From: an uncultured Candidatus Saccharibacteria bacterium
GTDB lineage: Bacteria > Patescibacteriota > Minisyncoccia > Phycocordibacterales > UBA9973
Direction: 5' to 3'
Assembly (NCBI GenBank): GCA_964563715.1
Contig: CAZLXA010000003.1
Span: forward strand, 1-59,150
Length of the DNA stretch: 59,150 bases
Notes under the pieces: model-generated
Databases searched by the model: none
Seen by the model: only the letters and a program-made list of their open reading frames with translations
What the model was told of the DNA's origin: nothing
Translations under genes and position numbers: made by a program
Part shown: one piece after another, positions 1,513 through 59,150 of the stretch
Position numbering within the stretch: the stretch's first letter is position 1
Layout: each line of letters begins with the position of its first letter

Positions 1513-2376
1513 ATGGAAGATGTTTGCAAATTAAAATTTGAACAATTTCCGAAAGCCCTACTCGAAATTCCCCAACCACCAAAAACTCTATATATTAGAG
1601 GAAAACTTCCTGATCCTGATTTTATATATTTAGCCGTCGTTGGATCGAGAAGATACACTTCCTATGGCAAAGATATCTGTCAAAAATTAATCCGTGGATT
1701 AAAAAATTATCCTATCGTTATTGTTTCGGGTTTGGCTATTGGAATAGATAGTATTGCTCATAAGACAGCTTTGGAAGTCGGACTTCCAACAATTTCATTC
1801 CCAGGCTCGGGACTTGATAATAATGTTTTATTTCCAAAAACAAATATAAAACTAGCGCAAGAGATTGTGGATAGTGGTGGATGTCTTATTTCAGAATTCG
1901 AACCAAATTTCGTTGCTACAACTTATTCTTTCCCCCAAAGAAATAGATTAATGGCGGGAATCTCCAAAGCTGTCCTTATCATCGAAGCTGAAGAAAAATC
2001 TGGCTCATTAATAACAGCTCGAATGGCTCTTGATTATAATCGTGATGTATTGGCCGTCCCCGGCTCAGCTTTTTCATCAAATTCAAATGGAACAAATGCT
2101 CTTATTAAGCAAGGAGCAATACCAGTGACTAGTAGTGATGATGTACTTGAAGCATTAGGTTTTGAAGTCGAAAAAATAATTCAATCAGATAAAGAAAAAT
2201 ATGCCGATTGTTCTAAAGATGAATTAAAAATAATTGAATTACTTCGAGAACCAATGGAACGCGATGACTTAATAAGAGAATTAAAAATAGATACAGCCAC
2301 AGCCAATGCTCTACTTTCGATGATGGAATTGAAAGAATTAATCAAACAAGAACTCGGACAAATCAGAAAAATTTAA
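1513..2376 (+). CDS. dprA: DNA processing protein DprA/Smf
   Basis: 287 aa. DprA Rossmann-core motifs are present: VSGLAIGIDSIAHKTAL, FPQRNRLMAGIS and VPGSAFS. A C-terminal winged-helix-like tail follows. The gene sits next to topA, the common synteny. Confidence 0.9.
   Translation: MEDVCKLKFEQFPKALLEIPQPPKTLYIRGKLPDPDFIYLAVVGSRRYTSYGKDICQKLIRGLKNYPIVIVSGLAIGIDSIAHKTALEVGLPTISFPGSGLDNNVLFPKTNIKLAQEIVDSGGCLISEFEPNFVATTYSFPQRNRLMAGISKAVLIIEAEEKSGSLITARMALDYNRDVLAVPGSAFSSNSNGTNALIKQGAIPVTSSDDVLEALGFEVEKIIQSDKEKYADCSKDELKIIELLREPMERDDLIRELKIDTATANALLSMMELKELIKQELGQIRKI
1771..1789 (+). repeat. 19-nt perfect palindrome TTGGAAGTCGGACTTCCAA inside dprA (family A coding-region palindrome)
   Basis: The same 19-mer on the coding strand occurs in tatD (34673-34691) and argS (52079-52097). 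In all three genes it is translated as LEVGLP. Confidence 0.75.
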
Positions 2377-6939: not shown

Positions 6940-6942
6940 AGT

Positions 6943-8922: not shown

Positions 8923-8968
8923 ATCTCCCACCCTTTGGGTATCGTTGGTTCGAGTCCAACTCGGCGCA
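8886..8968 (+). tRNA. tRNA-Tyr (anticodon GTA), long variable arm, no encoded CCA
   Basis: Acceptor stem GCGCCGA/TCGGCGC with discriminator A. Anticodon stem GGAGA/TCTCC with loop CTGTAAA. Long variable arm. T arm GTTGG-TTCGAGT-CCAAC. Confidence 0.9.
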
Positions 8969-8992
8969 CAAAACAAACAAACCCTGAAAAGT

Positions 8993-9021
8993 AAAAAACA
9001 CAGGCCTTGCCTGTGCTATTT
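8993..9021. terminator. intrinsic terminator, best on the minus strand for clpB
   Basis: AAAAAA-CACAGGC-CTT-GCCTGTG. On the minus strand the hairpin is followed by TTTTTT. Confidence 0.7.
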
Positions 9022-22672: not shown

Positions 22673-22787
22673 AAGTCATACATGTTAGCTTAATAAAAAA
22701 GATTATGCTAAGCTATAAACTATATATTTTGATATTATTATTTAATCAAAGTACGGGAATCTAAAGATTCCCTACTTCTAACGGGAT
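22663..22787 (+). repeat. inverted-repeat leader element E1 (14-bp arms, ~97-nt spacer); the 3' arm ends on the ATG of the pseudouridine synthase
   Basis: ATCCCGTTAGAAGT (22663-22676, overlapping the MFS stop codon) pairs with ACTTCTAACGGGAT (22774-22787). Hairpin GGGAATC-TAAA-GATTCCC (22755-22772) sits 1 nt before the 3' arm. Confidence 0.8.
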
Positions 22788-23487: not shown

Positions 23488-23490
23488 AAC

Positions 23491-23524
23491 AAAAAATCTC
23501 CACAGAACCTGTGGAGATTTTTTG
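23491..23524. terminator. bidirectional intrinsic terminator
   Basis: AAAAA-ATCTCCACAG-AAC-CTGTGGAGAT-TTTTTT, between convergent genes. Confidence 0.8.
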
Positions 23525-23533
23525 TTATCTCTA

Positions 23534-32500: not shown

Positions 32501-34215
32501 AACAAAGCTCCTTGTGAATTTGAAAATAAAAATTGATGACTATCTGTGGAATCATTTCCAATTAAAACATTTCCCTCAACTTCTAATTTTTGAGTTGGGT
32601 TTGTTGTTCCGATTCCAATATTTCCATTACCATTCATTCTCATATATTCTGTACTTCCAACCATAAATTTAACTGCGTAAGAAGAAGAATATGGTTTTAT
32701 AAAAAAATCTGTAGAACCAATAACCCCTGCAATACTACTAATTTGCCCCGATCCCATATTTAAACCAGCGATATAACTTGTAGTCCAATATTTACTAGGA
32801 ATTCCGAGTGAACCACCAGATGATACTGTTGGAACAATATTCCCAGTCACAGTTAATGCATCAGTTGGTGATGTCGTTCCCATTCCAACTCGGTGATTCA
32901 CACTATCAACAAATAAAGTATTCGTATCAACAGTTAAATTATGTAGACCCAAATCAACATTGGTATTTCCACCTGTATAAGGAATTAATCCTGACAAATT
33001 AGAAGGGGTTAAATAATTTCCCGCTGGTTGTTTATTATTAAAAGTTAACCAATCTGTTGATGCTAGATATCCATCAACCAAATTTGTGGCCACTCCTAAT
33101 TTTGTTTTTATAGAAGAATTTGTTTCATCTCCTGTATTTGTCCCAGAAAGATTTGAGCCAATAATATTTCCTGTGGCTAAAATATTCCCGTCTACACTTA
33201 TTTTCTCTGAAGGAGTACTTGTCCCTATTCCCAACCTAGAATTCGTACTATCCCAAAATAAATTTGTATTATCCTCTGTAAGTCCAGATGCTCCCTGGAA
33301 TGGAATTGAACCGAAAGTAAATGCGGGGTTAATAGTCCCAACTACATTTCCCGTGAGGTTACCGGTGATAGTTAGATCTCCGTTGATATTTGCATCACCT
33401 GAAACAATAAGAGATTTTGTCTCTACTTCATCTGCTAGTGAATTAGATAACCCTTTGATGCTGTCTGATATAGAATCAAATATTTTACTGACTTGTCGAG
33501 AAAAAAATACTTCTGAGACAAAATTAGAAACATCGATACTGTTTCCGTTTTCACCTTTCGGTCCTTGAGGGCCAACTGGCCCAATCAAACCTTGTGAACC
33601 TTGAATTATTTTTGTATCTGTTTTAGTTATTTGGATTGCTGGTGGAATAATTTCGTTTTTTGTTGTTTTTGGATTTTCTTTATTTGATGAGGGAATACTA
33701 GGAACAGTTTTCTTTGAAGTATTATTATCAGAAATAATTGTATCAGTATTTTTATTGTCGATTCCTATAACTGCTTGATTAAGAGCAATTCTTGTTTCAA
33801 CAAAATTGTTTATTAGTCCTTTTATAAAATAGTTCCAACCATAAGCTAGGTCGCCAGCGACTGAGACTAGAGACGATCCGAGTGAGGTATTATTTGTATA
33901 TTCTTTATTAGAAAGTGGGATAGAAATATCGATAGCAGTTGCAGTAAGATTTGTTTTCTTATTTACAGAAAATTCTGTTGTTTTGATTTCAAATTGATTA
34001 TCTAAATTAGAAAAATCTGGAATATTTTTCTTAAACAATGAAAGTGAATCATTTATTAAACATGCAACATCTGTATCATTGCATACGATTCTTTCTGTTA
34101 TCTTTTCGTTATTATAAGCAAGTAATATTTTAATGGGAAAAGTCACAAAAATAACAAAAATCAGTATAATGAAAAATGTATACTTATAATTTTTTATTTT
34201 TTTATTTTTTTCCAT
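26521..34215 (-). CDS. giant membrane-anchored fibre protein: collagen-like stretch, ~20 GNVGIGTT repeats, C-terminal tail-fibre-type intramolecular chaperone (Peptidase S74-like) domain, Pro-rich tail
   Basis: 2564 aa. TM anchor FFIILIFVIFVTFPIKILLAY. Collagen-like run GSQGLIGPVGPQGPKGENG. The motif GNVGIGTTxPxxxLxV recurs about 18-20 times by my count. The C-terminal module reads CSSDINLKKNITTLEN...LTPVMYNWNN...HVGFIAQEVEQIFPDIV...YTNLIPYTVKAIQEM. Confidence 0.9.
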   Translation of the reverse strand: MEKNKKIKNYKYTFFIILIFVIFVTFPIKILLAYNNEKITERIVCNDTDVACLINDSLSLFKKNIPDFSNLDNQFEIKTTEFSVNKKTNLTATAIDISIPLSNKEYTNNTSLGSSLVSVAGDLAYGWNYFIKGLINNFVETRIALNQAVIGIDNKNTDTIISDNNTSKKTVPSIPSSNKENPKTTKNEIIPPAIQITKTDTKIIQGSQGLIGPVGPQGPKGENGNSIDVSNFVSEVFFSRQVSKIFDSISDSIKGLSNSLADEVETKSLIVSGDANINGDLTITGNLTGNVVGTINPAFTFGSIPFQGASGLTEDNTNLFWDSTNSRLGIGTSTPSEKISVDGNILATGNIIGSNLSGTNTGDETNSSIKTKLGVATNLVDGYLASTDWLTFNNKQPAGNYLTPSNLSGLIPYTGGNTNVDLGLHNLTVDTNTLFVDSVNHRVGMGTTSPTDALTVTGNIVPTVSSGGSLGIPSKYWTTSYIAGLNMGSGQISSIAGVIGSTDFFIKPYSSSYAVKFMVGSTEYMRMNGNGNIGIGTTNPTQKLEVEGNVLIGNDSTDSHQFLFSNSQGALFFDGSSRMILGSASGRTLAFRTGGFGSDSLTRMLIDNTGNVGIGTTAPTAGLHLTDKGIRIGATTIGNTPKLIFGYDGSGGGNYMELYSNTNTGDGYINNIGLYPLHFMIGGSDKVTILNNGNVGIGTTNPLEKLHISAGNLIIENGQSINFRRPSWGNIAGIYANYTTNLEGYLIFQTNNGSVNSEKMRIDKDGNVGIGTTTPNQQLEITKNFRLPTTTGSTPYGIIYKGSSPFISDFSYGLNSNSITPTGNNIFIGIGAGNLTTGSTATMASQSSLNTVIGSESFTSNTTGFNNTSLGYRTLTSNTTGNNNMAIGILALYSNTTGTNNTAIGRESLFANVTSSNNTANGAYALSSTTAGNNTASGYASMVSNTTGSLNTAYGYQSARYISDGITERTTGNNGLYLGGNSKASDNGTDNEIVIGYNAIGQGSNTVTLGNTNITKTLLNGNVGIGTTSPIAKLQIGPGGSDTTLSFNLGATNTYSSIQSYNSNLALNPSGNNVGIGTTSPTTLLNLGTGNFRIENGSIFLPNGNMTVSSGGIDITRNSTLTGLTVNQNGTGKIVEFLDGANSALSVIDGGNVGIGTNTPTGLLSILQSGDTANDGIRIERVGASRATIALSALTGNLEISRAATTIMSIGVSNIGIGTTTPTVPLQIGDSAFANNALVGLVSGANQDSGFVMAEGAGSLITGTSYGFKLFYNGASANTFNVQSMEGAGFVDRLTINRSTGNVGIGTTTPGANLEIYKAGENANLKLYAFSSSAYDSQVQFSANTNAAVEYSIGLDNSDNNFKIFSGENVRGTSEFVINPSGNVGIGTTAPGALLHVGSTNSTIRYTQINSNGQLLVNYNNNGDAIPITLRNMDQSSGISHSITQDAYFARTTSSAPISAGYLRFGKEQEWTTTNTTNDSFISFGSALDSVTSEKMRITSAGNVGIGITNPAAKLEVNSTFLTEFNTTTNGSYGVRTSGPIKGNEYYLSNLSGGFRTAGGNYMFYSDTAGRFATGSSTGLSGLYNVIQSTTGNGTVATTGTTTLTGTNTSFLSTFKVGDTVTVSGETARIISTIASDTVLTVSVAFSNTASGLSYTLIGGNRFAVMGNGNVGIGTTTPAYPLDVNGVVRATSASTQVAPFITSNTSAGSSGVFSWVYEGLTPNIVNNSGSLFLLGKAKSTNNSAHFDYVHVSDGSTSNRFSIGMYNNDNLLNVLASGNVGIGTTTPTLGKLEVKSVDLYNVTPFALAVHAPSESPYMAGFFNDTKSTTVPGLAYFGWNNGDVNIGTFNGKFFFGAGGTVSTGATTRMAIDNTNGNVGIGTTSPSELLDITGISTAGTSLRLYNNTTAYGDRGIIKFNGNTAGGGNTNTSMAQIVAGHTDIGTTNYLDFKVGSWNNNNTIGSTMMRINSSGNVGIGTTSPSSKLTVVGDIAFSGGGLTLNWSGNAAITNATYDLAFKNYDTGGATLRENMRITGSGNVGIGTTTPTGKLHVVGTSTVATDIIKLSAGSGTFFVNNVTSNSIGPIIDYDINASATITNFIRLGNGTMATGATNGITQNIITSTPTIATASNSTTFNVLNIAPTVNQTGTANGITRGIYVNPTLTSAPDFRAIETNVASGTGRYGYYGAGTAISYFGGNVGIGTATPAANLDVLGNIKSSSTIAFGGNGRLNHAGSGITSYVEILNQSIGGIRFKNSLIDLMSVDNLGNVGIGNTSPSYQLQVGNNTVSGIVVRFENSTGTCDINPTTASLACSSDINLKKNITTLENSEFILKENIDTSSKSLEKILALTPVMYNWNNENDNTNKHVGFIAQEVEQIFPDIVFTDPNTNLKSISYTNLIPYTVKAIQEMDLIVKELSSLDTSKDNSLGSLITRFLAEQATFAKEFTANIFHVNGDVCVDDVCITKEEFKQMLINAKGTANTDVTTPEIEVTPTVVPPPVATPPIETENPPVVENEIVTNPLPLIDTEPVITPSIETVTEPINDTTVVVSLPESPVSDDSNTIPSEN

Positions 34216-34340: not shown

Positions 34341-35246
34341 TTAAAGATTAAAAATTCTCTTCGCATTAGCGAAAATCGCTTCCGAAACTTCATTTTCAGG
34401 TAAGTTTTTTATCTCTGCGATTTTTTTAACTATTTCTTTTACATACACTGGCTCGTTTCTCTTGCCTCTATGAGGGACTGGAGCTACATATGGGCTATCT
34501 GTATCAGTTAGAATCATATCAAGTGGTGTTTCTTTAATAACCCGTAAATAATCACAAATTTCTGGTTTAGGCTTATAGGTTATCGGTCCTGCAAAAGAAA
34601 TATATACTCCTATCTCTACAAATCTTTCCATATCCTCTACACTGCCAGCAAAAAAATGCGACACTCCAATCTTTGGAAGTCCGACTTCCAAAGATTTTGA
34701 ATATTTCTTAAGTAATTCATAAACATCAAAATAAGCATTGCGAGTTTTATCAGTCGGCCCGCCTTGACCCGCGTCAGTCGAGGCAGGATTGTTTCGAACA
34801 TGAAGCATGAGGGGAAGACCAAGTTCATTGGCAAGTTCGATTTGAGCAATAAAAGCAATTTTTTGTTTCTCAATACTCTCTTCATCCATGTGATAATAAT
34901 CAAGACCACATTCCCCTATACCAACAACTTTGCCGAGCTTTATTAATTCTCTGTATTTTTCTTTATCGAAAACTTCACCACGTGAGACAAACTCTTTTCC
35001 TTCCTCTCCGAGCTCATTCACATCATGATATGAAGCTCCCGTATGAATTGGATGAAGTCCAATCGTTGAATAAACTCCTTCGGGATAATCATTCGTCATC
35101 TCAACTGCTTTTTTCGAAGTGTCATATTGAGTACCGATATTTATGACCCAAGTATCATTATCCAAAGCCCGACGAATAACCATATCCCTATCATCATCGT
35201 ATGCTTTAAAATTTGTATGCGCATGTATGTCTATGTATTTAGGCAT
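34341..35246 (-). CDS. tatD: TatD-family metal-dependent hydrolase/DNase
   Basis: 301 aa. Motifs IDIHAHTNF, GECGLDYY, LMLHVRN, VSHFFAGS and TDSPY. Confidence 0.9.
   Translation of the reverse strand: MPKYIDIHAHTNFKAYDDDRDMVIRRALDNDTWVINIGTQYDTSKKAVEMTNDYPEGVYSTIGLHPIHTGASYHDVNELGEEGKEFVSRGEVFDKEKYRELIKLGKVVGIGECGLDYYHMDEESIEKQKIAFIAQIELANELGLPLMLHVRNNPASTDAGQGGPTDKTRNAYFDVYELLKKYSKSLEVGLPKIGVSHFFAGSVEDMERFVEIGVYISFAGPITYKPKPEICDYLRVIKETPLDMILTDTDSPYVAPVPHRGKRNEPVYVKEIVKKIAEIKNLPENEVSEAIFANAKRIFNL
34669..34695. repeat. 27-nt perfect palindrome ATCTTTGGAAGTCCGACTTCCAAAGAT in-frame in tatD (family A)
   Basis: Identical 27-mer at 52075-52101 in argS. On the coding strand it is translated SLEVGLPKI in both proteins. 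Confidence 0.9.
34758..34787. repeat. second GC-rich imperfect palindrome in-frame in tatD
   Basis: CCCGCCTTGAC-(8 nt)-GTCGAGGCAGG. It encodes part of the extra loop NPASTDAGQGGPTDKT immediately after the conserved LHVRN. Confidence 0.55.
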
Positions 35247-36347: not shown

Positions 36348-37853
36348 TTATTTCCTTAAAAACAAAGGAGTTTCTGGTTTTTTATTTTGTTTTATTAATT
36401 CTTGAATTTTTAGAGATGTCGCGGGGAGCATTGGCTCTATGGCAAGAGAAGCTTTATATAAATGGAACAATAAGTAATGCACATCTTTCTCGGCTTCTTC
36501 TTTGTTTATTTTAATTTTTTTAAATGGCTCATTTGTTTGAATATATTTATCGAGAGCTCCTAAGCATTCCCAAATCCAATTTATAAATTTATTGATATCA
36601 TAATTTTCTAAATCATCTTTTGGCTCACTAAAATATTTTATATTCATTTCTTCTTCCGATAATTTGACGTCATAATTTACAGCCATGGTCATAATACGAC
36701 TAACTAAATTTCCTAAACCATTTGCGAGTCCTGAATTGTAAGCATCTTTGAATCGCTCAATAGTAAATGGACTATCTTCAAAACTTCCTACTTCACGAAG
36801 AAGAAAATACCTGAGTGCGTCTGTACCATATTCAGAAACTACATCACGAGGGTCAACAACATTGCCGAGTGTTTTCGACATTCTTATTCCACCCTCACCT
36901 GTTATAAAACCATTCACAATTATTTGATGAGAATTGGGTACTCCTGCTGCCATAAGCATGGCTTGCCACATAGCACTTTGGAAGCGAGTATTGTCTTTAC
37001 CGCAATACTGAGTGGGGGTACCATTAACCCAATATTTTTCAAATAAATTTTCAGTATTTGGCCTAAAACCTTCATCAGTAGATGAAGGTTCGGCCGAACT
37101 TGTGCCATTTGCACAAGTTTTAGGCCATCCAAGAGTTGAAATATAATTTACAAGTGCATCAAACCATACATACATAACTTGATTCTCATCACCAGGGACG
37201 GTTATACCCCAAGGCATTTTTTCTTTCAATCGAGAAATTGAAAAATCCTGTAAGCCATTTTTAACAAAATTTTTAATTTCATTTAAGCGAAATTCAGGAA
37301 TAACAAAATTTGGATGCTCGTCGTAGAATCTTAATAATCGATCCCCAAATTCTGAATATTTGAAAAAATAATTCTCTTCATTTATTATTTTAAGCGATAT
37401 TCCGGGATGCTCAGGACAAAAACCATCTACAAGCTCACTATCTGTTTTTTCACTCTCACATCCTACGCAATATTTAGCTTCATAAGTTTTTTTATAAATA
37501 TAACCGTTATCGTTTACCCTCTTCCAAAACTCTTGTGCTGCTTTCTCATGATTCTCATCAGTCGTTCGAATAAAATGTATTATACTTTCATCAACGCCAA
37601 ACATTTTTAATTGTTCTTTAAAAGTTTCAAAACCAAGATCCACAAATTTTTGGGGAGAAAGACCTTGTTCTTTGGCTTTTTCAAATATTTTCATACCATG
37701 CTCATCAGTCCCTGTATTAAAATAAACATCGTACCCAATAAGCTTTTTATATCGAGCAATAGTATCTGCCCGGACAAATTCAAGAGCATGCCCCATGTGA
37801 AGCGGTGCATTTACATAAGGAAGTGTAGTTGTAAGGAAAAAAGGTTTTTTCAT
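36348..37853 (-). CDS. metG: methionyl-tRNA synthetase
   Basis: HIGH-type PLHMGHA and KMSKS-type RMSKTLGN. I prefer the ATG at 37853 (MKKPFFLTT), which abuts the upstream stop codon, over the ORF-track start at 37895. Confidence 0.95.
   Translation of the reverse strand: MKKPFFLTTTLPYVNAPLHMGHALEFVRADTIARYKKLIGYDVYFNTGTDEHGMKIFEKAKEQGLSPQKFVDLGFETFKEQLKMFGVDESIIHFIRTTDENHEKAAQEFWKRVNDNGYIYKKTYEAKYCVGCESEKTDSELVDGFCPEHPGISLKIINEENYFFKYSEFGDRLLRFYDEHPNFVIPEFRLNEIKNFVKNGLQDFSISRLKEKMPWGITVPGDENQVMYVWFDALVNYISTLGWPKTCANGTSSAEPSSTDEGFRPNTENLFEKYWVNGTPTQYCGKDNTRFQSAMWQAMLMAAGVPNSHQIIVNGFITGEGGIRMSKTLGNVVDPRDVVSEYGTDALRYFLLREVGSFEDSPFTIERFKDAYNSGLANGLGNLVSRIMTMAVNYDVKLSEEEMNIKYFSEPKDDLENYDINKFINWIWECLGALDKYIQTNEPFKKIKINKEEAEKDVHYLLFHLYKASLAIEPMLPATSLKIQELIKQNKKPETPLFLRK
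37097..37119. repeat. 9-bp palindrome within an extra loop of metG
   Basis: AACTTGTGC-CATTT-GCACAAGTT flanked by GGCC...GGCC. It encodes part of WPKTCANGTSSAEPSSTDEG. Confidence 0.4.
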
Positions 37854-46447: not shown

Positions 46448-49400
46448 CTATTTCTCAATTAGTATCTTAAACACAAATTCATCGATTTTTATTTCTTGAC
46501 CATCGTTTTCTTTAATAAATATATCTTTTGCTCCGATAGATTTCATAAATTCTTTCTCATCGAAAGTATTTATTAATTCTTGGCCATCTACACCTGTCTC
46601 AATAAGTAAATTAATTATATCATTTGGATTCAACCCATTCTTTTTTCTCATATCCTGTATAGCTCGTAGAAGTTCTCGGTATTGACCCTCTTGTTTTAGC
46701 TCAGGTGTGATATCAGGATTCAACTCAATTTTTTCTGAAATAAAATTATCAGTGATGATCATTTTAATATTCAACTCGTCTTTTATAATTTTTGTATATT
46801 CTTTATCTAAATCATAATCTCTAACTTTTATACCAATAAGGGGCTGACGAACGGCAATACCAGCTTTTTGCCTTTCTTTTAATCCGAGTGATACAATCTC
46901 GCGGGCTTGTTTCATTTCATCAATAACTTTCACATCAATATTATCTATTTTGATATCTAAAAAGAAATCGGTCAGATGAACACTGATAGGGTCAGATGGA
47001 AATCTTATTTTATTCCAAATTTCTTCTGCCACAAATGGCATAAATGGGGCAAAAAGCTGAGCAGTTACTTTTATAACAAAATATAATGTATGTTTTGCTT
47101 CTTCATCCCCTTCTTTTAATCGATCACGAGAACGACGTAAATACCATGTGGAAAGATCTTCAATAAATAAATCAAAGGGCTTTGTTGCTTGAGCTAAATC
47201 ATAAGATTCCATTCCGTTTTTAACATCGAGCACAAATTGCGAGATCCGAGCAAGTATCCATCGGTCTAGAATATTTTTGCTTAATACTTGTTGCTCACTA
47301 CTTTCTACTTCCTTGTCTCTATATAATTCATAAAAAGAAACAACATTATCAAATCTATTAATTATTTTACTTGATACTTCTTGAACAAGTTTTTCTGAAA
47401 AATTTACATCTTCACCCTTCATCAAAGTACTTGAAATTAAATAAAAACGAAGAGCATCAACACCATATTTATCAAATAAAACCCATGGATCTGGATAATT
47501 ATTTTTAGATTTAGACATTTTACTTCCATCTTCAGCTAAAACTGTCCCTGTTGTAACTACGTTTTCAAAAGGGGCTTTACCAAAAAGAATTGTCGAAATA
47601 GCATGAGTATAGTAAAACCAAGTTCTGGTTTGAGCTATATATTCAGCAACAAAGCCAGCAGGAAAATTATTCTTTTGCCAATTCAAGTTTTCAAAAGGAA
47701 AATGATCTTGAGCAAAAGGCATCGAGCCTGATTCAAACCAACAGTCTATAACTTCTGGAATTCTCTTGTATTCTTCTTTATTTTCATCTAAAAGAATAAT
47801 TGAATCAATATAGGGCCGGTGCAAATCGAACTTATAATCTCCAGTATGTGGTAATGGGACGAAAGGTAATTCAATAAAATCCCCATTACTAACATAATTG
47901 AAATTTTTCTCGTTTTTTACTATTCCAAGAGATTCTTCTGTACTTAACATATTTACATCTGAAAACATTTGCCAAACAGGACTACCATGAGTAACCACAA
48001 GAATATTTTTATCTTCGTATTTTTTTTCTATATCATATAAAAAACTCATTGACCTGCGTCTAACATCTTCATAGGATTCATTCCCGTCTGGTGCGTAATA
48101 AAAATTCTCAACCGTCTTAGCGAATGCGTCATGATATTCTTTCCATTTTTTCCCTTCATACATTGGGACAGACATTTCATGAAGCCTATCATCAAAAACA
48201 ATTTTTTCTTTCTCATAACCTATTTTTTCAGCAATCAATTCTGCTGTTTCTCGTGTTCTTATAAAAGGAGAAGATATTATGTAATCAATTTTTTTATTTA
48301 TTAATTCTCGTGCAGATTTTTCAACTTGTTCTATCCCCTTCGCAGTTAGGTGATCATCATTGTTTACAGTCGAACTCACTTCACCACGCACATTACACTC
48401 TGTCTCGCCATGGCGCATGACAAAATATTTATTCCCAGATTTTTTAGTTTTTGATTTTAAATCTTCAACCGAATTTACCATCATTACCTTTCCATTTTTA
48501 TTCTTCCAAATTGGAAGAGGGCTGGCCCAATAGCGATTTCTAGAAATAGTCCAATCAGGAGCATTCTCCATTGTATGTTTAAACCGTCCTTCTTTTAAAT
48601 GGCTAGGAATCCAATTCATATCTTCACCTTTTGCAAGTAAATCATTTTTAACTTTCTGAATATTCACAAACCACGAAGGGAGAGCATAGTATAGAAGTGG
48701 TGTCTCACAACGGTAACAATGTGGGTAGGAGTGAATAATTTTTTCTTTAGCAAAAAGACTCCCAGCATGAGCAAGATACTTAATAATTAAAATATCGGTT
48801 GACTGATGATCTTCTTTTGATTTTGCTTTAACGTTTGGAAAATCTACTACCTCTTTAGAAAAATCACCATTAGGCTCCACGTGTCGAATAAAAGGGATAT
48901 TATGCTCTTTAGCTAAATTCATATCATCTTCTCCAAAAGCTGGAGCTTCATGAGCAATCCCTGTTCCTTTATCTAGAGTCACGAATGGAGCATGCCAAAC
49001 TTTCCAAATATTTTCTTTATTAGGCATGTCGATATTTTTATAATAATTAAATACTGGCTCATATGAAAGGCCCACAAGCTCATTTCCAGATACTTCTTTT
49101 AATATTTTTCCATCATTAAATTTATCTTTTAATGTTTCAAATAAATCATTTACAACAATAAGTATTTCTTTCCCGGCATCTGTTTTATTTTCAACAAAAA
49201 GATATTTTAATTCTTTATTAATTGCAATCGCTGTATTACCCGGGAGAGTCCATGGTGTTGTTGTCCACGCAAGCAAATAGGTATCTTTATATTGTTCATT
49301 TATAATTTTAAATTTTACATAAACAGAAATATCGGTAATATCCTTATAAGAATTATCCATGGCAATTTCAGAATTTGCTATTGGGGTTTCGCATCGAGGG

Positions 49401-49942
49401 CAATAAGCAAGAACTCTAACACCTTCATAAAGTAAACCTTTTTTATTCATCTCCCCGAGCGCCCACCAAACACTTTCAATAAAAGTGTTATCCATTGTCA
49501 TATAAGAATTATCAAAATCAACCCAACGTCCCATACGATCAATAGTTTTTTTCCACTCTCCGACATATTTAAGAACCTTGCTTCGAGCATGTTCAGTAAA
49601 TTTATCAATTCCTAATTCTTCAATTGCTTTTTTTCCGGAAATACCCAATTCTTTCTCAACAATATTTTCAATCGGCAAACCATGGCAATCCCAACCCCAA
49701 CGTCGTGGGACATTATATCCACTCATAGTTTTATATCTACCAATTACATCCTTAACAGTACTTCCAAGAATATGCCCATAATGTGGTAATCCTGTCGCAA
49801 AAGGAGGACCATCATAAAAAACATACTCCCCTTTGGGTGAATCCTTTTCTAAACTCTTTTTGAAAATGTCGTTTTCTTTCCAAAATTTTAAAACCTCTTC
49901 TTCTCGAAGTGCACTATTTGTTTTTTGGGTTTTTTCTTCCAT
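46448..49942 (-). CDS. ileS: isoleucyl-tRNA synthetase carrying an inserted histidine-phosphatase (PGAM-like) domain
   Basis: 1164 aa. HIGH-type PHYGHILG. CP1 editing motif TTPWTLPGNTAIA. KMSKS is present. The insert at about aa 505-700 contains FVMRHGETECN, SSPFIRTRETAE and VVTHGSPV. Confidence 0.95.
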   Translation of the reverse strand: MEEKTQKTNSALREEEVLKFWKENDIFKKSLEKDSPKGEYVFYDGPPFATGLPHYGHILGSTVKDVIGRYKTMSGYNVPRRWGWDCHGLPIENIVEKELGISGKKAIEELGIDKFTEHARSKVLKYVGEWKKTIDRMGRWVDFDNSYMTMDNTFIESVWWALGEMNKKGLLYEGVRVLAYCPRCETPIANSEIAMDNSYKDITDISVYVKFKIINEQYKDTYLLAWTTTPWTLPGNTAIAINKELKYLFVENKTDAGKEILIVVNDLFETLKDKFNDGKILKEVSGNELVGLSYEPVFNYYKNIDMPNKENIWKVWHAPFVTLDKGTGIAHEAPAFGEDDMNLAKEHNIPFIRHVEPNGDFSKEVVDFPNVKAKSKEDHQSTDILIIKYLAHAGSLFAKEKIIHSYPHCYRCETPLLYYALPSWFVNIQKVKNDLLAKGEDMNWIPSHLKEGRFKHTMENAPDWTISRNRYWASPLPIWKNKNGKVMMVNSVEDLKSKTKKSGNKYFVMRHGETECNVRGEVSSTVNNDDHLTAKGIEQVEKSARELINKKIDYIISSPFIRTRETAELIAEKIGYEKEKIVFDDRLHEMSVPMYEGKKWKEYHDAFAKTVENFYYAPDGNESYEDVRRRSMSFLYDIEKKYEDKNILVVTHGSPVWQMFSDVNMLSTEESLGIVKNEKNFNYVSNGDFIELPFVPLPHTGDYKFDLHRPYIDSIILLDENKEEYKRIPEVIDCWFESGSMPFAQDHFPFENLNWQKNNFPAGFVAEYIAQTRTWFYYTHAISTILFGKAPFENVVTTGTVLAEDGSKMSKSKNNYPDPWVLFDKYGVDALRFYLISSTLMKGEDVNFSEKLVQEVSSKIINRFDNVVSFYELYRDKEVESSEQQVLSKNILDRWILARISQFVLDVKNGMESYDLAQATKPFDLFIEDLSTWYLRRSRDRLKEGDEEAKHTLYFVIKVTAQLFAPFMPFVAEEIWNKIRFPSDPISVHLTDFFLDIKIDNIDVKVIDEMKQAREIVSLGLKERQKAGIAVRQPLIGIKVRDYDLDKEYTKIIKDELNIKMIITDNFISEKIELNPDITPELKQEGQYRELLRAIQDMRKKNGLNPNDIINLLIETGVDGQELINTFDEKEFMKSIGAKDIFIKENDGQEIKIDEFVFKILIEK

Positions 49943-50900: not shown

Positions 50901-52637
50901 CTACATTTTTTCTGGTGTTTCAATACCAAGCAACCAAAGACCGTTTTTCATTGTTTGATAAAATGCTTTAATTAATTCAAGGTGATAACTCACATACTTA
51001 TTTTCATCATCAAGGATTTTTGTATTTCCATAAAAATTATTAAAAGAGCTTGCAAGTTGGGTTAGATAAGTTGCGATATGATGTGGTTGTAATGTCTCGT
51101 ATGAACGCTCTACAATTTCTGGAAATTGATAAATCAATTTTTCTAAATCTGTCGTCTCTAGATTAGTTTCTAGCGAAGAGGTTCTAGTTTCTAGTTTAAA
51201 TTCTTTGGATTTTTCTAAAATCGAATTGGCACGAACAGCAGTATATTGTAGATACGGACCTGAATCTCCATCAAAAGAAATTGATTTCTCAAAATCATAA
51301 ACTATATCACTTCCAAGTGATGAACGAAGTATAGAATATTTAAGTGCCGCCACACCAACAATTTCAGATATTTTCTTTTTTTCTTCATCCGAAAAATCTC
51401 TGTCTTTTACTTTCTCAAGGACAATATCCATTGAGTCACGTAATAATGACTCCCCTGTTATAACATTACCTTTTCGTGAGGACATCTTACCTGTGGCAAG
51501 ACGCATCATCCCATGAGTAATGTGCTTCATTCTACTTTCCAAATCTGGATGCATAAGTGAGATAGCTTTCTGAACAACTTTCATATACTCAGCTTGCTCA
51601 ATCGCTGTCGTAACAATAGAAATATCTGGATTTTCTTTTTCGAATTTCGTCATGGTTAGACCGATCTCTTTTGTCTCATAAGTTGGTAGTCCTTGAGAAT
51701 TTATAAATACACGAGTGTGAAGCTTTTTATCATAATTCTCCCCATGAAAAACTATTGCTCCGGCTGATTCTTCAAATACATTACCCGTATTCCCCCGGAC
51801 AACCTTCTCCCCCTTTACGGCCATTTCACTCTCAAAAAAATAGTGATCAAATTTTGTACCTAGAAGTTTGTATATTCCCTCAAATGCCTCTAGTGTTATC
51901 TTTCTTCCCCAATCATAAATTTTATTTATTTCATCATCAGACTTATCATAGATTTTTTTATTAATTTCATCTATTTTTTTCTTGGCATTTTCATCGTTAT
52001 CATACAAATTGCTTCCTTTGGAATAACACTCACCCATGTATTGAGCCAATTCATTATAGGAAGTCCGACTTCCTATCTTTGGAAGTCCGACTTCCAAAGA
52101 TTCTTTTGAATTTAAAATTGAATATATAGCTTTAGCAACATGAGGGCCAACGTCACCTTGGTAATTTGCCCGAACAGTTTTAGCACCAGAAAATTCAACA
52201 ATTCGAGAAATGGATTCCCCTATCGCATTACTCATTAAATGACCAATATGAAAAGGCTTAAATGGATTTGGCTGAGTATATTCAACCATCACTTTTTTAC
52301 CAGTTAGTATTTCATTTTTTCCCCAATTTTCTTTTTTATTTAAAATTTCATTTATACTTTTTGTAAAAAATTCTCGTGATAAATAAAAGTTTATAAACCC
52401 AGCACCGGCGACTTCAACCTTTTCAATTTCTTTTATTAAATTCTTTTCAATTTCTTTTTTAATAGTTTCTGCTAATTCTTTAGGATTTTTACCAAACTTT
52501 TTAGCACATACCATCGCTACATTCGTAGAGTAATCTCCATTCACAAAACTCTCAGGATGTTCAACAGAAAAAGAAACATCTTCCATCCCAAGATTTTTTA
52601 GAGCATTTTGTATTTGTTTCTTGATTTCTTCTTTCAT
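50901..52637 (-). CDS. argS: arginyl-tRNA synthetase
   Basis: 578 aa. HIGH-type NPFKPFHIGHL. MSSRKGN. C-terminal anticodon-binding (DALR-like) domain. Confidence 0.95.
   Translation of the reverse strand: MKEEIKKQIQNALKNLGMEDVSFSVEHPESFVNGDYSTNVAMVCAKKFGKNPKELAETIKKEIEKNLIKEIEKVEVAGAGFINFYLSREFFTKSINEILNKKENWGKNEILTGKKVMVEYTQPNPFKPFHIGHLMSNAIGESISRIVEFSGAKTVRANYQGDVGPHVAKAIYSILNSKESLEVGLPKIGSRTSYNELAQYMGECYSKGSNLYDNDENAKKKIDEINKKIYDKSDDEINKIYDWGRKITLEAFEGIYKLLGTKFDHYFFESEMAVKGEKVVRGNTGNVFEESAGAIVFHGENYDKKLHTRVFINSQGLPTYETKEIGLTMTKFEKENPDISIVTTAIEQAEYMKVVQKAISLMHPDLESRMKHITHGMMRLATGKMSSRKGNVITGESLLRDSMDIVLEKVKDRDFSDEEKKKISEIVGVAALKYSILRSSLGSDIVYDFEKSISFDGDSGPYLQYTAVRANSILEKSKEFKLETRTSSLETNLETTDLEKLIYQFPEIVERSYETLQPHHIATYLTQLASSFNNFYGNTKILDDENKYVSYHLELIKAFYQTMKNGLWLLGIETPEKM
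51160..51203. repeat. CTAGAAAC-type heptamer repeats inside the argS CDS
   Basis: The coding strand reads AAACTAGAAACTAGAACC...GCTAGAAACTAATCTAGAG, translated KLETRTSSLETNLETT. The same AAACTAGAAACTAGAA string lies in the spacer at 53418-53434. Confidence 0.65.
52059..52101. repeat. family A palindrome in argS: full 27-nt copy (52075-52101) plus a 15-nt core copy GGAAGTCCGACTTCC (52059-52073)
   Basis: The 27-mer is identical to tatD 34669-34695. The two units are read in different frames and give SLEVGLPKIGSRTSY. Confidence 0.9.
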
Positions 52638-53406: not shown

Positions 53407-53441
53407 CTAGAACCTAGCCACTAGAAACTAGAAACTAATTC
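53407..53441. repeat. five tandem CTAGnnn heptamers in the tmk-rhodanese spacer
   Basis: ctagaac ctagcca ctagaaa ctagaaa ctaattc. Confidence 0.7.
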
Positions 53442-55830: not shown

Positions 55831-55947
55831 CCCATTAGAAGTAGTCCTTTCGGACATACATATATTTAGTTAATAAAAATCAAAATATGACTAACTTCTT
55901 GATACATTCCCGTTTTCTTAATATAACATATATGACTTCTAACGGGA
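55829..55947 (-). repeat. inverted-repeat leader element E2 (same family as E1, opposite orientation); its 3' arm ends on the glyA ATG
   Basis: On the minus strand CCCGUUAGAAGU (55946..55935) pairs with ACUUCUAAUGGG (55842..55831), with one G-U wobble. Hairpin GUCC-GAAA-GGAC (55855..55844) sits 1 nt before the 3' arm. Confidence 0.8.
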
Positions 55948-56877: not shown

Positions 56878-57398
56878 TTCTATCTATAATCTCTGCCATT
56901 GGGAAAAATAATGAAATTGGCCAAAGTAATGCTTTACTTTGGGATTTACCAGCAGATATGAAGCACTTTAAAGAAACTACTTCTAGTCATACTGTAATAA
57001 TGGGCCAAAAAACCTATGAATCTTTAGGACAAAGTAAGACTGGTGAGCTTGGCCGACCACTTCCCAACCGAAGAAACATAGTTTTAACCAAAGATGTATC
57101 TTTCCGCCGTGAGGGAATTGAAGTTATCTTTTCTATTGAAGAACTTATTAAACTATTAAACGAAACTGAAGATAAAGATAGCGAATGTTTTATTATTGGT
57201 GGAGGACAAATTTATAAATTATTCATTGATATAGCTGACCGACTTTATATCACCCATGTTGATGAATCATTCCATTTAGCTGATACATTCTTCCCTGAAA
57301 TAGATATATCTAAATGGACAAAAACATCTGAAGAAGAATATCCCTCAGATGAAAAAAATAAATACAATCTTTCGTTTGTAACATATACTAAAAAATAA
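56874..57398 (+). CDS. folA: dihydrofolate reductase
   Basis: 174 aa, with AIGKNNEIG, VIMGQKTYESLG and IIGGGQIY. Overlaps the thyA stop by 4 nt. Confidence 0.9.
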   Translation: MILSIISAIGKNNEIGQSNALLWDLPADMKHFKETTSSHTVIMGQKTYESLGQSKTGELGRPLPNRRNIVLTKDVSFRREGIEVIFSIEELIKLLNETEDKDSECFIIGGGQIYKLFIDIADRLYITHVDESFHLADTFFPEIDISKWTKTSEEEYPSDEKNKYNLSFVTYTKK

Positions 57399-57426
57399 AA
57401 CCCTCATTTGAGGGTTTTATTTTTTA
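57397..57426. terminator. bidirectional intrinsic terminator
   Basis: AAAA-CCCTCA-TT-TGAGGG-TTTTATTTTTT. Confidence 0.8.
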
Positions 57427-58510: not shown

Positions 58511-59121
58511 CTAATAATAAAAAACCCCAGTATCATCCCAACAAAATTTAAAATTGTGTGGGAAATTGAAATTAAAACCAAATTTTTATATCGGTAATAC
58601 ATCCAAGCAAAACCAATTCCAGCAATGAAAGTCATAGGAAGAACGAATGTTGAATTTAAGTAAATAACATGGATCAAAGTAAAGACTGAAGCATTTAAAA
58701 TAATAATAAATATGGGACTAGAAAAAGCTCTTCTTAGCATATTCATTAAAACTCCACGAAAAACAATTTCTTGTATTATACTTAGAGGAATAAAAAGTAA
58801 TAAAAATTTTAGATTTTTCCACCAGCCTAAAAACGGACTATGTGGAACGATTTCAGAGAGCCAAATTAGAAACAAAACTCCCGCCACAGTAAATACAGTG
58901 TAAGGTAAAATATCTTTCATAAAATCCCTAGTCAACCCCATATCAGCGTAAGACCATTTATTGTGTTTTACAATTCCAATCAAAAGCAGGGCCACACCAA
59001 AAAGCATTATTAATCTAAAGCTTTCCGGAATAACATTAAAATATAAAAGTAGAGTAGGAATTACATACAAATATAATATTTGAATCCAAACAAGTTCTCT
59101 TTCTTTTTTTATGTCTTCCAT
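58507..59121 (-). CDS. CPBP-family intramembrane glutamic protease (CAAX protease-like)
   Basis: 204 aa, polytopic. Motifs QEIVFRGV, FTLIHV and SISHTILN. Confidence 0.8.
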   Translation of the reverse strand: MEDIKKERELVWIQILYLYVIPTLLLYFNVIPESFRLIMLFGVALLLIGIVKHNKWSYADMGLTRDFMKDILPYTVFTVAGVLFLIWLSEIVPHSPFLGWWKNLKFLLLFIPLSIIQEIVFRGVLMNMLRRAFSSPIFIIILNASVFTLIHVIYLNSTFVLPMTFIAGIGFAWMYYRYKNLVLISISHTILNFVGMILGFFIIR

Positions 59122-59150
59122 CCCGTTAGAAGTAGATAATCTTTAGATTA
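59120..59150 (-). repeat. partial third copy of the E leader element (3' arm plus hairpin), cut by the window edge
   Basis: The minus strand reads AAUCUAAAGAUUAUCUACUUCUAACGGGAUG. This is 29 of 31 identical to the E1 segment AAUCUAAAGAUUCCCUACUUCUAACGGGAUG. The ATG is the CPBP start codon. Confidence 0.75.

What the first reader, a model, noticed from the sequence alone, without database searches (positions are those of the whole stretch)
52059..52101. argS holds 1.5 tandem copies of the family A palindrome, read in two different frames
Seen: a 15-nt core palindrome GGAAGTCCGACTTCC lies at 52059-52073. The full 27-nt element lies at 52075-52101, 1 nt away. On the coding strand the first unit gives SLEVGLPKI. 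The second, shifted in frame, gives GSRTSY.

Tandem and partial copies are what a replicating or recombining element would leave behind. Selection on a protein motif would not produce them.

About 900 nt away the same gene also contains a second kind of repeat, the CTAGAAAC heptamers at 51160-51203. argS therefore appears to tolerate insertions in at least two loops.
Basis: partly seen in the sequence, partly recalled or inferred. Interest (0 to 1): 0.7.

Follow-up and report, generated by a model that had tools for sequence, protein, structure and literature searches.

The report
Mobile palindrome pair inside argS gene
Two adjacent copies of a short DNA palindrome sit in frame inside the essential arginyl-tRNA synthetase gene of an ultra-small (CPR) bacterium and are read as a 15-residue loop; related genomes carry the same palindrome around a transposase-like gene, so it is a new variant of the known REP/RAYT kind of selfish DNA.

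Summary
argS (50901-52637, minus strand) holds a perfect 27-nt palindrome (52075-52101). Abutting it is a second perfect palindrome of 21 nt (52056-52076) with the same 15-nt core, GGAAGTCSGACTTCC. They are read in different frames as SLEVGLPKI and GSRTSY.

The same core occurs in the window's tatD and dprA. It also occurs in more than 114 stretches of public MAGs, mostly Patescibacteria. There it lies in all three frames, in both orientations, and between genes.

Sixteen of those stretches carry an about 240-aa IS200-like Y1 (HUH) transposase gene. Ten of these genes have the palindrome upstream, inside, and just after the stop. Related transposase genes carry different palindromes in the same places. 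This is the REP/RAYT pattern.

The family departs from classic REPs: it is fully symmetric, has no GTAG/CGTC tag, and about 60% of copies lie inside long ORFs. Close ArgRS orthologs lack the segment. Others keep it with covarying arms, or show it decaying.

Verdict: a real, translated REP-like doublet and a new variant of a known kind. Movement by the transposase is inferred, not shown. The window has no transposase gene.

The parts
52075..52101 (.). Perfect 27-nt palindrome ATCTTTGGAAGTC-C-GACTTCCAAAGAT, the full-length family unit. On the coding (minus) strand it encodes S180-I188, SLEVGLPKI.
   Evidence: It matches the 27-nt symmetric family consensus AWWTTTGGAAGTCSGACTTCCAAAWWT. It is identical to the tatD copy and to the copies inside and after the RAYT-like gene of the related MAG (L001).
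52056..52076 (.). Second perfect palindrome, 21 nt, ATAGGAAGTC-C-GACTTCCTAT. It has the same 15-nt core (52059-52073) but different outer arms. It is read in another frame as (I)GSRTSY.
   Evidence: Direct doublet with period 22. Present in L015 and partly decayed in L106.
50901..52637 (-). Host gene argS (arginyl-tRNA synthetase, 578 aa).
   Evidence: Pfam PF03485, PF00750 and PF05746; orthologs. In the AlphaFold model the element-encoded residues 180-194 lie between helices 165-175 and 194-214, where confidence dips locally (pLDDT about 58).
34668..34696 (.). Sister copy: perfect 29-nt palindrome AATCTTTGGAAGTCCGACTTCCAAAGATT inside tatD (34341-35246, minus strand), encoding SLEVGLPKI in the same frame.
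   Evidence: The window protein is 5-6 residues longer than solved TatD structures at this place. Many close orthologs have alleles without the element.
1769..1789 (.). Sister copy: 21 nt shared with the family (a 19-nt perfect palindrome at 1771-1789) inside dprA (1513-2376, plus strand), encoding ALEVGLPT.
   Evidence: Here the element replaces a native conserved segment with no change in length.

Best explanation
The argS feature is a doublet of a REP-like palindromic repeat. The family belongs to a RAYT-like (IS200-type, HUH/Y1) tyrosine transposase found in Paceibacteria-type CPR bacteria.

Shown here:
- The family is defined by the invariant 15-nt core GGAAGTC-S-GACTTCC within a symmetric unit of about 27 nt.
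- It is dispersed through genes and spacers of many related genomes.
- It brackets and interrupts its cognate transposase gene.
- Other lineages of that transposase carry other palindromes in the same three positions.

Inferred from the known biochemistry of TnpA(REP) and IS200/IS605 enzymes: the enzyme binds the hairpin that the core forms in single-stranded DNA. It cuts and rejoins there, which copies the unit to new places or re-templates existing copies.

Because the unit has no stop codon in any of its six frames, copies that land in tolerant protein loops survive and are translated. In ArgRS the two units encode a 15-residue connector between two helices of the catalytic domain, a region that is hypervariable in length in this clade.

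The second unit arose either by a second insertion next to the first or by slippage between the repeated arms. An independent second copy, at a different spacing and orientation, exists in another ArgRS lineage.

Palindromy is kept at the DNA level, even at the cost of amino-acid changes.
For: 1. Significance and family. There are 4 core sites in the window against 0.05 expected.

2. Not a peptide motif. Of 173 copies, 103 lie in ORFs of 150 aa or more. Frames 0/1/2 hold 36/47/20 copies, read as GS[PR]TS, LEV[GR]LP and WKSDFQ. Centre orientation is biased only where it changes the amino acid. It is 9 versus 11 where the change is synonymous.

3. Transposase link. Sixteen stretches carry an about 240-aa ORF that hits Pfam PF01797 Y1_Tnp (39 bits, cut-off 23). 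Its best NCBIfam hit is 'REP-associated tyrosine transposase'. The HUH motif and Tyr residues are invariant. No such gene occurs in the 533 kb of loci not selected for the palindrome.

4. Architecture. In 10 of these genes the palindrome lies 36-93 nt upstream of the ATG, at +177 to +237 inside, and 7-60 nt after the stop.

5. Cognate pairing. Homologous genes in L066, L046, L049 and L095 carry other palindromes upstream and at or after the stop where the contig allows (L046 ends first). L066 and L046 also carry one inside, at about +180.

6. The related MAG (ArgRS 86% identical) has this transposase gene with exactly the window's arms, ATCTTTGG...CCAAAGAT (L001).

7. Presence and absence. Most ArgRS orthologs, including the closest (P0002, 90% identical), are 18-24 nt shorter here. 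Carriers are scattered on the ArgRS tree. TatD orthologs show alleles that are empty, filled, flipped or decayed.

8. DNA-level constraint.
- The core is identical at synonymous sites in orthologs chosen by protein only: 4 of 5 codons against an 18.6% background, P about 0.005 by my arithmetic.
- The arms covary: four pairs change on both sides, 94% of cells are paired, and 0-1 of 500 shuffles reach the observed values.
- G.U-type mismatches on the sense strand are not favoured over A.C-type (25 versus 31).

9. Doublets are a family habit. Fifty of 173 copies are in doublets. L199 has an independent second copy in the same ArgRS loop.

10. Both hairpins are predicted to be stable: DNA -17.3 kcal/mol (z = -5.8) and RNA -26.2 kcal/mol (z = -4.3).
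Against: - No transposase gene lies in the 59-kb window. The link rests on related genomes.
- The transposase scores below NCBI's RAYT equivalog cut-off (42.7 against 80). It matches the solved E. coli TnpA(REP), 4er8, only weakly (E = 0.42).
- Mobility has not been observed.
- Filled and empty alleles never differ by a clean 27 nt. In dprA the element replaces native sequence with zero length change. In argS the difference is +18 or +24 nt, and in tatD +21 to +33 nt, with flanking differences. Simple cut-and-paste insertion therefore does not describe the events. Conversion, or insertion followed by trimming, is needed.
- Native sequence at several sites already resembles the element's peptide: FGLPD in ArgRS, ALQNGGKTI in DprA, EEVGG in TatD. 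This is unexplained.
- Several orthologous copies used for the conservation tests were found by exact match to the pattern, so only the protein-selected subset is a fair test.
Confidence: 0.78

Rival explanations
1. The palindrome is a host-selected cis-acting site rather than selfish DNA. It could be a binding site for a dimeric chromosome-organising protein (like matS, NBS or SBS sites), a DNA-uptake signal, or a regulatory hairpin. On this view it arises in place by mutation wherever coding constraints allow, and the transposase association is secondary.
For: - The core is conserved at synonymous sites and the arms covary at orthologous positions.
- In dprA the element occupies a native conserved segment with no length change.
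- All four window copies are perfect, and the window holds no degenerate relics.
- The density, about 1 per 15 kb, resembles that of dispersed protein-binding sites.
- CPR bacteria are thought to depend on DNA uptake (my background knowledge).
Against: - No copy occurs in 533 kb of related Paceibacteria DNA that was not selected for the palindrome. A conserved host function would not be so lineage-specific.
- Copies decay in one ArgRS clade (L201, L197).
- Each transposase lineage has its own palindrome in fixed positions.
- The paired arms extend to 13 nt or more, longer than a protein site needs.
- Doublets and nested copies are frequent.
- Known uptake sequences are about 10 times denser and are not palindromic (my background knowledge).
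Confidence: 0.12
2. The palindromes form locally, with no mobile element involved. Template switching within a strand, or inverted duplication during replication, turns quasi-palindromes into perfect ones at each site independently.
For: - The outer arms differ between copies yet stay complementary.
- In the MAFFT alignment the right arm lines up with the native FGLPD codons, as if the left arm were an inverted copy of it.
- Template-switch correction of quasi-palindromes is an established mutational process (my background knowledge).
Against: - This cannot explain why the same 15-19-nt core appears in unrelated genes and in many genomes.
- It cannot explain why the core brackets a transposase gene.
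- It remains a plausible secondary process that extends and repairs the arms.
Confidence: 0.04
3. LEVGLP is a functional peptide motif selected in ArgRS, TatD and DprA, and the nucleotide identity merely follows from codon usage.
For: In the window, three proteins show the same peptide in the same frame. Native DprA has a similar motif.
Against: - The core is translated in three frames into unrelated peptides and also lies between genes.
- The second argS copy is itself read as GSRTS.
- Most orthologs lack the peptide: 113 of 120 ArgRS and 97 of 120 TatD.
- The codons are identical, where synonymous variation would be expected.
Confidence: 0.02
4. The tandem arrangement is an assembly or chimera artefact.
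For: Short repeats can mislead assemblers, and many contigs carrying the transposase gene are only about 1 kb long.
Against: - The 43-nt doublet is far shorter than a sequencing read.
- The reading frame is preserved.
- The same doublet is present in an independent assembly of a different organism (L015), and in diverged form in L106.
Confidence: 0.01

Closest known systems
REP elements with their RAYT transposases ('REPtrons'; Nunvar 2010, Bertels & Rainey 2011 and Ton-Hoang 2012 from memory; Di Nocera 2013, PMC3733652, read)
   Same: - A short palindromic repeat dispersed through the genome.
- A Y1/HUH transposase homolog flanked by its own repeat.
- Different transposase lineages paired with different repeats.
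- Frequent doublets.
- A lineage-specific distribution.
   Different: - The unit is perfectly symmetric and has no GTAG or CGTC tag at one end.
- About 60% of copies lie inside long ORFs rather than outside genes.
- A copy sits inside the transposase gene itself: 111 of the 120 closest homologs encode EVGLP or EVRLP there.
- The hosts are CPR bacteria. No paper in the searchable library links RAYT or REPIN with CPR.
- The transposase is about 240 aa and scores below NCBI's RAYT equivalog cut-off.
Intragenic REPs ('REP-decorated proteins'; Di Nocera et al. 2013, PMC3733652)
   Same: That paper reports REPs entirely inside known genes, including tRNA synthetase genes. More than half of those inserts are dimers or groups. 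The paper judges them probably neutral insertions in modular proteins.
   Different: There they are a minority of a mainly intergenic family, and they carry GTAG or CGTC tags. Here intragenic copies are the majority, and they sit in a genome with very little spacer DNA.
Rickettsia palindromic elements (RPE; Ogata 2000 from memory; cited in PMC3733652)
   Same: Palindromic selfish DNA inserted in frame into essential genes and translated, in a small reduced genome.
   Different: As I recall, RPE-1 is roughly 100-150 bp and has no known transposase. This unit is 27 nt and has a candidate transposase.
REPINs (Bertels & Rainey 2011, PMC3116915; listed, not read)
   Same: Nineteen of 25 doublets in this family are two units in inverted orientation around a short spacer. 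Nine of them have a period of 19 nt.
   Different: Each unit here is already a perfect palindrome. The argS doublet is of the rarer direct type. As I recall, spacers in classic REPINs are longer (tens of nt) than the 4-16 nt seen here.
IS200/IS605 insertion sequences and their palindrome-associated derivatives (PATEs)
   Same: The same transposase superfamily (Pfam PF01797), which recognises hairpins in single-stranded DNA.
   Different: As I recall, IS200/IS605 ends are two different imperfect hairpins, and the whole element is multi-copy. Here the same symmetric palindrome lies on both sides of the gene, and solitary 27-nt units far outnumber the gene.
Very small dispersed repeats of cyanobacteria (SDR, 21-27 nt; Elhai 2008, from memory only)
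   Same: Similar size (about 21-27 nt), hairpin-forming, found nested or in tandem, and with mobility inferred from orthologous comparisons.
   Different: As I recall, no dedicated transposase was identified for them. Coding-region colonisation and this sequence family were not described.

Membership tests
REP/RAYT system (REPtron) | A Y1 (HUH) tyrosine transposase homolog is associated with the repeat. | tested here: met
   Pfam PF01797: E = 1e-9, 39 bits against a cut-off of 23. N-H-x-H and Tyr residues are invariant in 12 sequences. Sixteen of the first 114 palindrome-selected stretches carry the gene; none of the 80 unselected loci does.
REP/RAYT system (REPtron) | The transposase is a RAYT in the strict sense (NCBIfam equivalog NF047646, or similarity to E. 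coli TnpA(REP)). | tested here: inconclusive
   NF047646 is the best and only NCBIfam hit, but it scores 42.7 bits against a cut-off of 80. The profile search against PDB gives 4er8 at only E = 0.42.
REP/RAYT system (REPtron) | The transposase gene is flanked by its own repeat. | tested here: met
   In 10 loci, copies lie at -36 to -93 from the ATG and 7-60 nt after the stop (or just before it in L001), plus one inside the gene.
REP/RAYT system (REPtron) | Cognate pairing: different transposase lineages go with different repeat families. | tested here: met
   L066, L046, L049 and L095 carry four other palindromes at the corresponding positions.
REP/RAYT system (REPtron) | The repeat is a 20-40-nt palindrome present in many dispersed copies per genome. 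| tested here: met
   The unit is 27 nt. There are 4 copies in 59 kb and at least 12 in the fetched parts of the related MAG CAYVBT01. No closed genome was available for a true count.
REP/RAYT system (REPtron) | Copies are extragenic. | tested here: not met
   103 of 173 copies lie in ORFs of 150 aa or more. The hosts identified are ArgRS, IleRS, TatD, DprA, KsgA, GatB, RNase HII, a Mur ligase, YchF, DapF and MnmA (IleRS judged by eye from the L114 ORF).
REP/RAYT system (REPtron) | A conserved asymmetric tetranucleotide tag (GTAG or CGTC) lies at one end of the hairpin. | tested here: not met
   The position-frequency table of 167 copies is symmetric out to +/-13 and shows no flanking tag.
REP/RAYT system (REPtron) | The transposase binds and cleaves the single-stranded repeat. 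| not testable with these tools
   This needs biochemistry.
Rickettsia palindromic elements | A palindromic element inserted in frame in protein-coding genes and translated. | tested here: met
   The frame is preserved in argS, tatD and dprA. Translation itself is inferred, not shown.
Rickettsia palindromic elements | A unit of about 100-150 bp belonging to the Rickettsia sequence families. | tested here: not met
   The unit is 27 nt. The sequence occurs in no paper of the library and matches no Rfam family.
DNA uptake sequences (USS/DUS) | Very high density (about 1 per kb), shared by all members of the taxon. The known ones are not palindromic. | tested here: not met
   About 1 per 15 kb in the window. 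None in 533 kb of related genomes. The unit is a perfect palindrome.
CRISPR or other regular arrays | Regularly spaced direct repeats with unique spacers. | tested here: not met
   Copies are dispersed. Clusters at about 200-280 nt are explained by the transposase gene architecture.

The most novel reading that the evidence does not exclude
Paceibacteria may host a previously undescribed branch of REP/RAYT systems in which the repeat lives mainly inside essential genes as a translated 9-residue cassette. On this reading the enzyme does more than transpose the unit. It keeps copies perfect and can overwrite similar native sequence, in a conversion-like re-templating from a hairpin.

This would explain four observations:
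- the zero-length replacement in dprA;
- the covarying arms;
- the all-or-none perfection of copies;
- the near-universal copy inside the transposase gene, which could act as master template or autoregulatory site.

Such a process would be a DNA-level editor of protein loops in ultra-small bacteria.
Probability: 0.25. Interest if true: 0.8.

Novelty: new variant of a known kind. Interest (0 to 1): 0.6.

Why it matters
CPR bacteria have tiny, gene-dense genomes and are usually described as streamlined. Here a selfish palindromic repeat and its transposase-like gene are widespread in them: 3,573 protein clusters, annotated only as 'transposase'. The repeat persists by hiding inside essential genes as translated loop segments.

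Practical consequences:
- **Annotation and alignment.** Short LEVGLP, GSPTS or WKSDFQ segments in CPR proteins are repeat-derived, not functional motifs. They will mislead alignments, trees and motif searches.
- **Assembly.** Such repeats may break contigs.
- **REP/RAYT biology.** The family is a compact test case for the long-standing question of how REPs are made and maintained. It offers a symmetric 27-nt substrate, a small candidate enzyme, and many natural alleles that are filled, empty, flipped or decayed at the same site.

Tried and rejected
- **Protein-motif reading.** Rejected on the frame distribution.
- **Known RNA family.** Rfam finds nothing at gathering score. The only weak hit, traJ_5 at E = 0.41, is noise.
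- **Selection on the sense-strand RNA hairpin.** L201 suggested G.U-tolerant changes. Over 86 genic copies, however, G.U-type mismatches do not exceed A.C-type (25 versus 31, p = 0.5). The constraint therefore looks strand-symmetric and DNA-level.
- **Clean insertion model.** I looked for empty sites differing by exactly 27 nt and for target-site duplications. L090 has TCAAAA on both sides, but other tatD alleles and argS do not fit.
- **Solved structures for the transposase.** A single-sequence search found nothing (one search gives only weak profile hits; none).
- **Literature.** A search for the sequence itself returned no papers.
- **Degenerate relics in the window.** None were found with up to 4 mismatches.
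- **Synonymous-site test.** The first version was biased, because several orthologs had been retrieved by exact match to the pattern. I repeated it on orthologs chosen by protein sequence only.
- **The 'CTAGAAAC' repeat in argS.** It is a local heptamer duplication in a variable linker, not a dispersed family.
Full report
**1. The observation**

The window is AT-rich (about 33% G+C). Protein matches place it in Nomurabacteria/Paceibacterota-type CPR bacteria.

The minus-strand ORF 50901-52637 is arginyl-tRNA synthetase, with its N-terminal, catalytic and DALR domains. Two sequences lie inside it:
- GGAAGTCCGACTTCC at 52059-52073;
- ATCTTTGGAAGTCCGACTTCCAAAGAT at 52075-52101.

The coding strand reads SLEVGLPKI and then, in another frame relative to the core, GSRTSY.

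The 15-mer occurs at four sites in the window against 0.05 expected. The 27-mer occurs twice exactly against none expected.

A palindrome scan shows that the 'half' copy is itself a perfect 21-nt palindrome (52056-52076) overlapping the 27-mer by 2 nt. The feature is therefore two units sharing a core, arranged as a direct doublet with period 22.

An independent assembly of another organism (L015, ArgRS 86% identical) has the same doublet. L106 (83% identical) has it partly decayed. It is therefore not an assembly artefact.

**2. The family**

The other window copies lie in tatD (34668-34696, a 29-nt perfect palindrome, also read as SLEVGLPKI) and in dprA (1769-1789, ALEVGLPT).

About 4 would be expected by chance for a 19-mer in 596 Gb (my arithmetic). 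Nearly all hits are Patescibacteria MAGs: Paceibacterota, Nomura-, Vogel-, Giovannoni-, Niyogi- and Moranbacteria. A few MAGs are labelled otherwise.

In the fetched DNA I counted 173 cores:
- 103 lie in ORFs of 150 aa or more, and 56 in ORFs under 100 aa, which are probably spacers.
- Within long ORFs, frames 0/1/2 hold 36/47/20 copies, giving GS[PR]TS, LEV[GR]LP and WKSDFQ.
- Centre orientation is skewed only where it changes the residue. Gly is preferred to Arg (34:13) and Pro to Arg (26:10).
- Orientation is even (9:11) where the change is synonymous.

So the element has no polarity with respect to transcription, and the filter acts on the peptide.

A frequency table of 167 distinct copies gives a symmetric 27-nt consensus, A-W-W-T-T-T-GGAAGTC-S-GACTTCC-A-A-A-W-W-T. 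Pairing falls to background beyond +/-13, and no asymmetric tag appears.

The unit has no stop codon in any of its six frames (read directly from the sequence).

**3. The transposase link**

Clustering the host ORFs produced one family hit far more often than any other. It is an about 240-aa protein that matches Pfam Y1_Tnp (IS200-like) above threshold. Its only NCBIfam hit is 'REP-associated tyrosine transposase', although below that model's cut-off. The HUH motif and tyrosines are invariant.

Sixteen of the palindrome-selected stretches carry this gene. None of the 80 loci fetched through ArgRS homology does, and those 533 kb also contain no core.

In ten of the genes the palindrome sits in three fixed places:
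- 36-93 nt upstream of the start codon;
- at +177 to +237 inside the gene;
- 7-60 nt after the stop (in L001, just before it).

Homologous genes that lack this core carry other palindromes at the corresponding places. Examples are TTGGAGGTTSAACCTCCAA in L066 and TAGTAGTTSAACTACTA in L046, each with a copy upstream and one inside at about +180. L066 also has a copy at the stop; the L046 contig ends before the stop. L049 and L095 carry GC-rich palindromes upstream and at or after the stop only.

Cognate pairing of a Y1 transposase with its flanking palindrome is the signature of REP/RAYT systems (PMC3733652).

The MAG most closely related to the window has this gene with exactly the window's arms (L001). 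The window itself has no such gene.

The protein family is large: 3,573 clusters at E <= 1e-5, named only 'transposase'. Of the 120 closest members, 111 encode EVGLP or EVRLP at the internal site. More distant members encode the core there in another frame (GSPTS in L035 and L039). The internal copy is thus conserved as nucleic acid, not as peptide.

**4. What happened in argS**

The segment between HVAKAI[YW] and [IL]GxxY varies in length across Paceibacteria ArgRSs, from about 7 to more than 40 residues.

Most close orthologs read GLMKFGLPDESKSVSEQ. The window reads SILNSKESLEVGLPKIGSRTSYNEL, which is 8 residues longer.

| Orthologs | State at this site |
|---|---|
| P0002 (closest, 90% identical) | short form, no element |
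| P0003, P0004 | the doublet |
| P0010, P0011, P0093 | a single unit |
| P0043 (L199) | a unit plus an independent second copy 31 nt away, with opposite centre, read as GSPTS |
| P0027, P0054 and relatives | progressively decayed versions (YSEVGLSN, YLNGGLSN) |

On a neighbour-joining tree built with the loop masked, carriers are scattered among non-carriers (crude, no support values). That means repeated gain, loss or allelic exchange.

In orthologs chosen by protein sequence only, 4 of the 5 invariant-residue codons in the core are identical, against 18.6% for such codons elsewhere in the gene.

The outer arms differ between lineages but stay complementary, with the flanking amino acids changing accordingly:
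- TCT...AAG (Ser/Lys);
- TAT...AAT (Tyr/Asn);
- TTT...AAA (Phe/Lys);
- ATG...TAT (Met/Tyr);
- TCG...TCG (Ser/Ser).

Four pairs show changes on both sides and 94% of cells are paired. Zero or one of 500 shuffles reach the observed values.

Across 86 genic copies, sense-strand G.U-type mismatches are not favoured over A.C-type (25 versus 31). The constraint therefore looks DNA-level and strand-symmetric.

Both hairpins are predicted to be stable as DNA (-17.3 kcal/mol, z = -5.8). As RNA an alternative nested fold is possible (-26.2 kcal/mol, z = -4.3).

In an AlphaFold model (pTM 0.82), residues 180-194 connect helices 165-175 and 194-214, with a local dip in confidence.

**5. The sister copies show the same dynamics**

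Of the 120 closest TatD orthologs, 23 encode EVGLP or EVRLP. Many have alleles without the element, such as KKYSKVKGVSHFF and KKYSTLGEIKGV. Others carry the unit with different arms, with either centre orientation, with decay, or with extra sequence in its centre.

In dprA the unit replaces a conserved native segment with no change in length. The solved pneumococcal DprA aligns without a gap. The 72%-identical ortholog in L068 has unrelated codons of the same length. The 85%-identical ortholog in L055 has 30 identical nucleotides amid many synonymous differences.

**6. Mechanism: shown and inferred**

Shown:
- family membership;
- the transposase association and its architecture;
- presence/absence polymorphism;
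- DNA-level conservation and covariation;
- filtering at the peptide level;
- the frequency of doublets (50 of 173 copies; 19 of 25 doublets inverted, 6 direct).

Inferred from the biochemistry of TnpA(REP) and IS200/IS605 enzymes (my background knowledge, and the discussion in PMC3733652): the enzyme recognises the core hairpin in single-stranded DNA and cuts and rejoins there.

Not explained:
- Filled and empty alleles never differ by a clean unit length.
- Native sequence at several sites already resembles the element's peptide.

Three processes could account for this: a conversion-like process, insertion followed by trimming under selection, or template-switch extension of the arms. I could not separate them.

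**7. Comparison with what is known**

Di Nocera et al. (PMC3733652) already describe REPs inside genes, including tRNA synthetase genes, often as dimers. Rickettsia RPEs are the classic translated palindromes. The kind is therefore known.

Four things differ here:
- The unit is fully symmetric and lacks the GTAG/CGTC tag.
- Intragenic copies are the majority.
- A copy lies inside the transposase gene.
- The hosts are CPR bacteria.

I found no paper containing the sequence, and none linking RAYT or REPIN with CPR. The library is incomplete, however. I therefore class this as a new variant of a known kind rather than a strict member, because two defining features of REPs were tested and not met.

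**8. Verdict**

The feature is a translated doublet of a RAYT-associated palindromic repeat in a variable ArgRS loop. The side claim about a second insertion at 51160-51203 is not supported beyond a local heptamer duplication in a variable linker.

Noticed in passing
window 8999-15: The hairpin CACAGGC-CTT-GCCTGTG lies 30 nt after tRNA-Tyr (8886-8969). It equals one half of the 36-44-nt palindromes that flank a second, different RAYT-like gene in the related MAG (L049). The lineage therefore probably has at least two REP/RAYT pairs. Full window coordinates are 8999-9015.
   Followed up: partly
window 46448-49942 (minus strand): The isoleucyl-tRNA synthetase (1164 aa) carries an embedded histidine-phosphatase-like segment (..YFVMRHGETECN..). 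Orthologs in L200 and L201 are listed with PF00300 His_Phos_1 between the two halves of tRNA-synt_1. I did not run the window protein itself against Pfam.
   Followed up: partly
window 22663-22680, 22772-22791, 55931-55947, 59116-59135: A 13-nt motif, ACTTCTAACGGGA, occurs four times. In two cases it lies directly against a start codon (..TCTAACGGGATGGAA..). It also occurs in L048. It may be a shared 5' leader or translation-initiation motif.
   Followed up: partly
window 51160-51203 and 53420-53433: A tandem heptamer (AACTAGA x2, CTAGAAACTAGAA) lies in the ArgRS linker before the DALR domain, which is about 3 residues longer than usual. The same 13-mer occurs in the spacer upstream of the thymidylate kinase gene and in L195. 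I found no dispersed family.
   Followed up: yes
L202 (tatD ortholog P0297), element site: The family unit is split at its centre by about 24 extra nt (SLEV-RPASPSQG-GLSKI). The extra sequence includes CAAGGCGGGCTT, which resembles the GC-rich palindrome flanking the RAYT-like gene of L095. This may be a nested insertion of a second repeat family into the hairpin loop.
   Followed up: partly
L007 (contig JBAZWY010000004.1, 232 kb, labelled Lentimicrobiaceae): A truncated RAYT-like ORF (64% identical over its C-terminal half) with two family palindromes sits on a long contig labelled as non-CPR. One MAG labelled Omnitrophota supplies several palindrome loci (L017, L021, L037, L038, L053, L067). 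This could be horizontal transfer, mis-binning or mislabelling; I did not resolve it.
   Followed up: no
window 37067-37119 (minus-strand ORF of 515 aa): Two adjacent near-perfect hairpins lie in frame inside a gene: AACCTTCATC-AGTA-GATGAAGGTT and AACTTGTGC-CATTT-GCACAAGTT. They are not repeated elsewhere in the window or in the fetched loci.
   Followed up: partly
window 26521-34215 (minus strand): A giant 2564-aa ORF carries dozens of GNVGIGTT-type repeats, which at the DNA level are the GTCCCAATNCCGACATTGCC repeats. It is probably a surface protein.
   Followed up: no
window 6904-6944, 23488-23526, 57389-57426: Long perfect palindromes (arms of 18-20 nt) with A/T runs on both sides look like bidirectional terminators. 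Their cores are unrelated to family A.
   Followed up: no
host proteins at element sites (DprA, TatD, KsgA, ArgRS): Distant homologs without the element often already have a similar peptide at the same place: DprA ALQNGGKTI and TatD EEVGG, ArgRS FGLPD, and E. coli KsgA SVEVL (from memory). Whether this reflects a selection filter or homology-assisted conversion is unexplained.
   Followed up: partly
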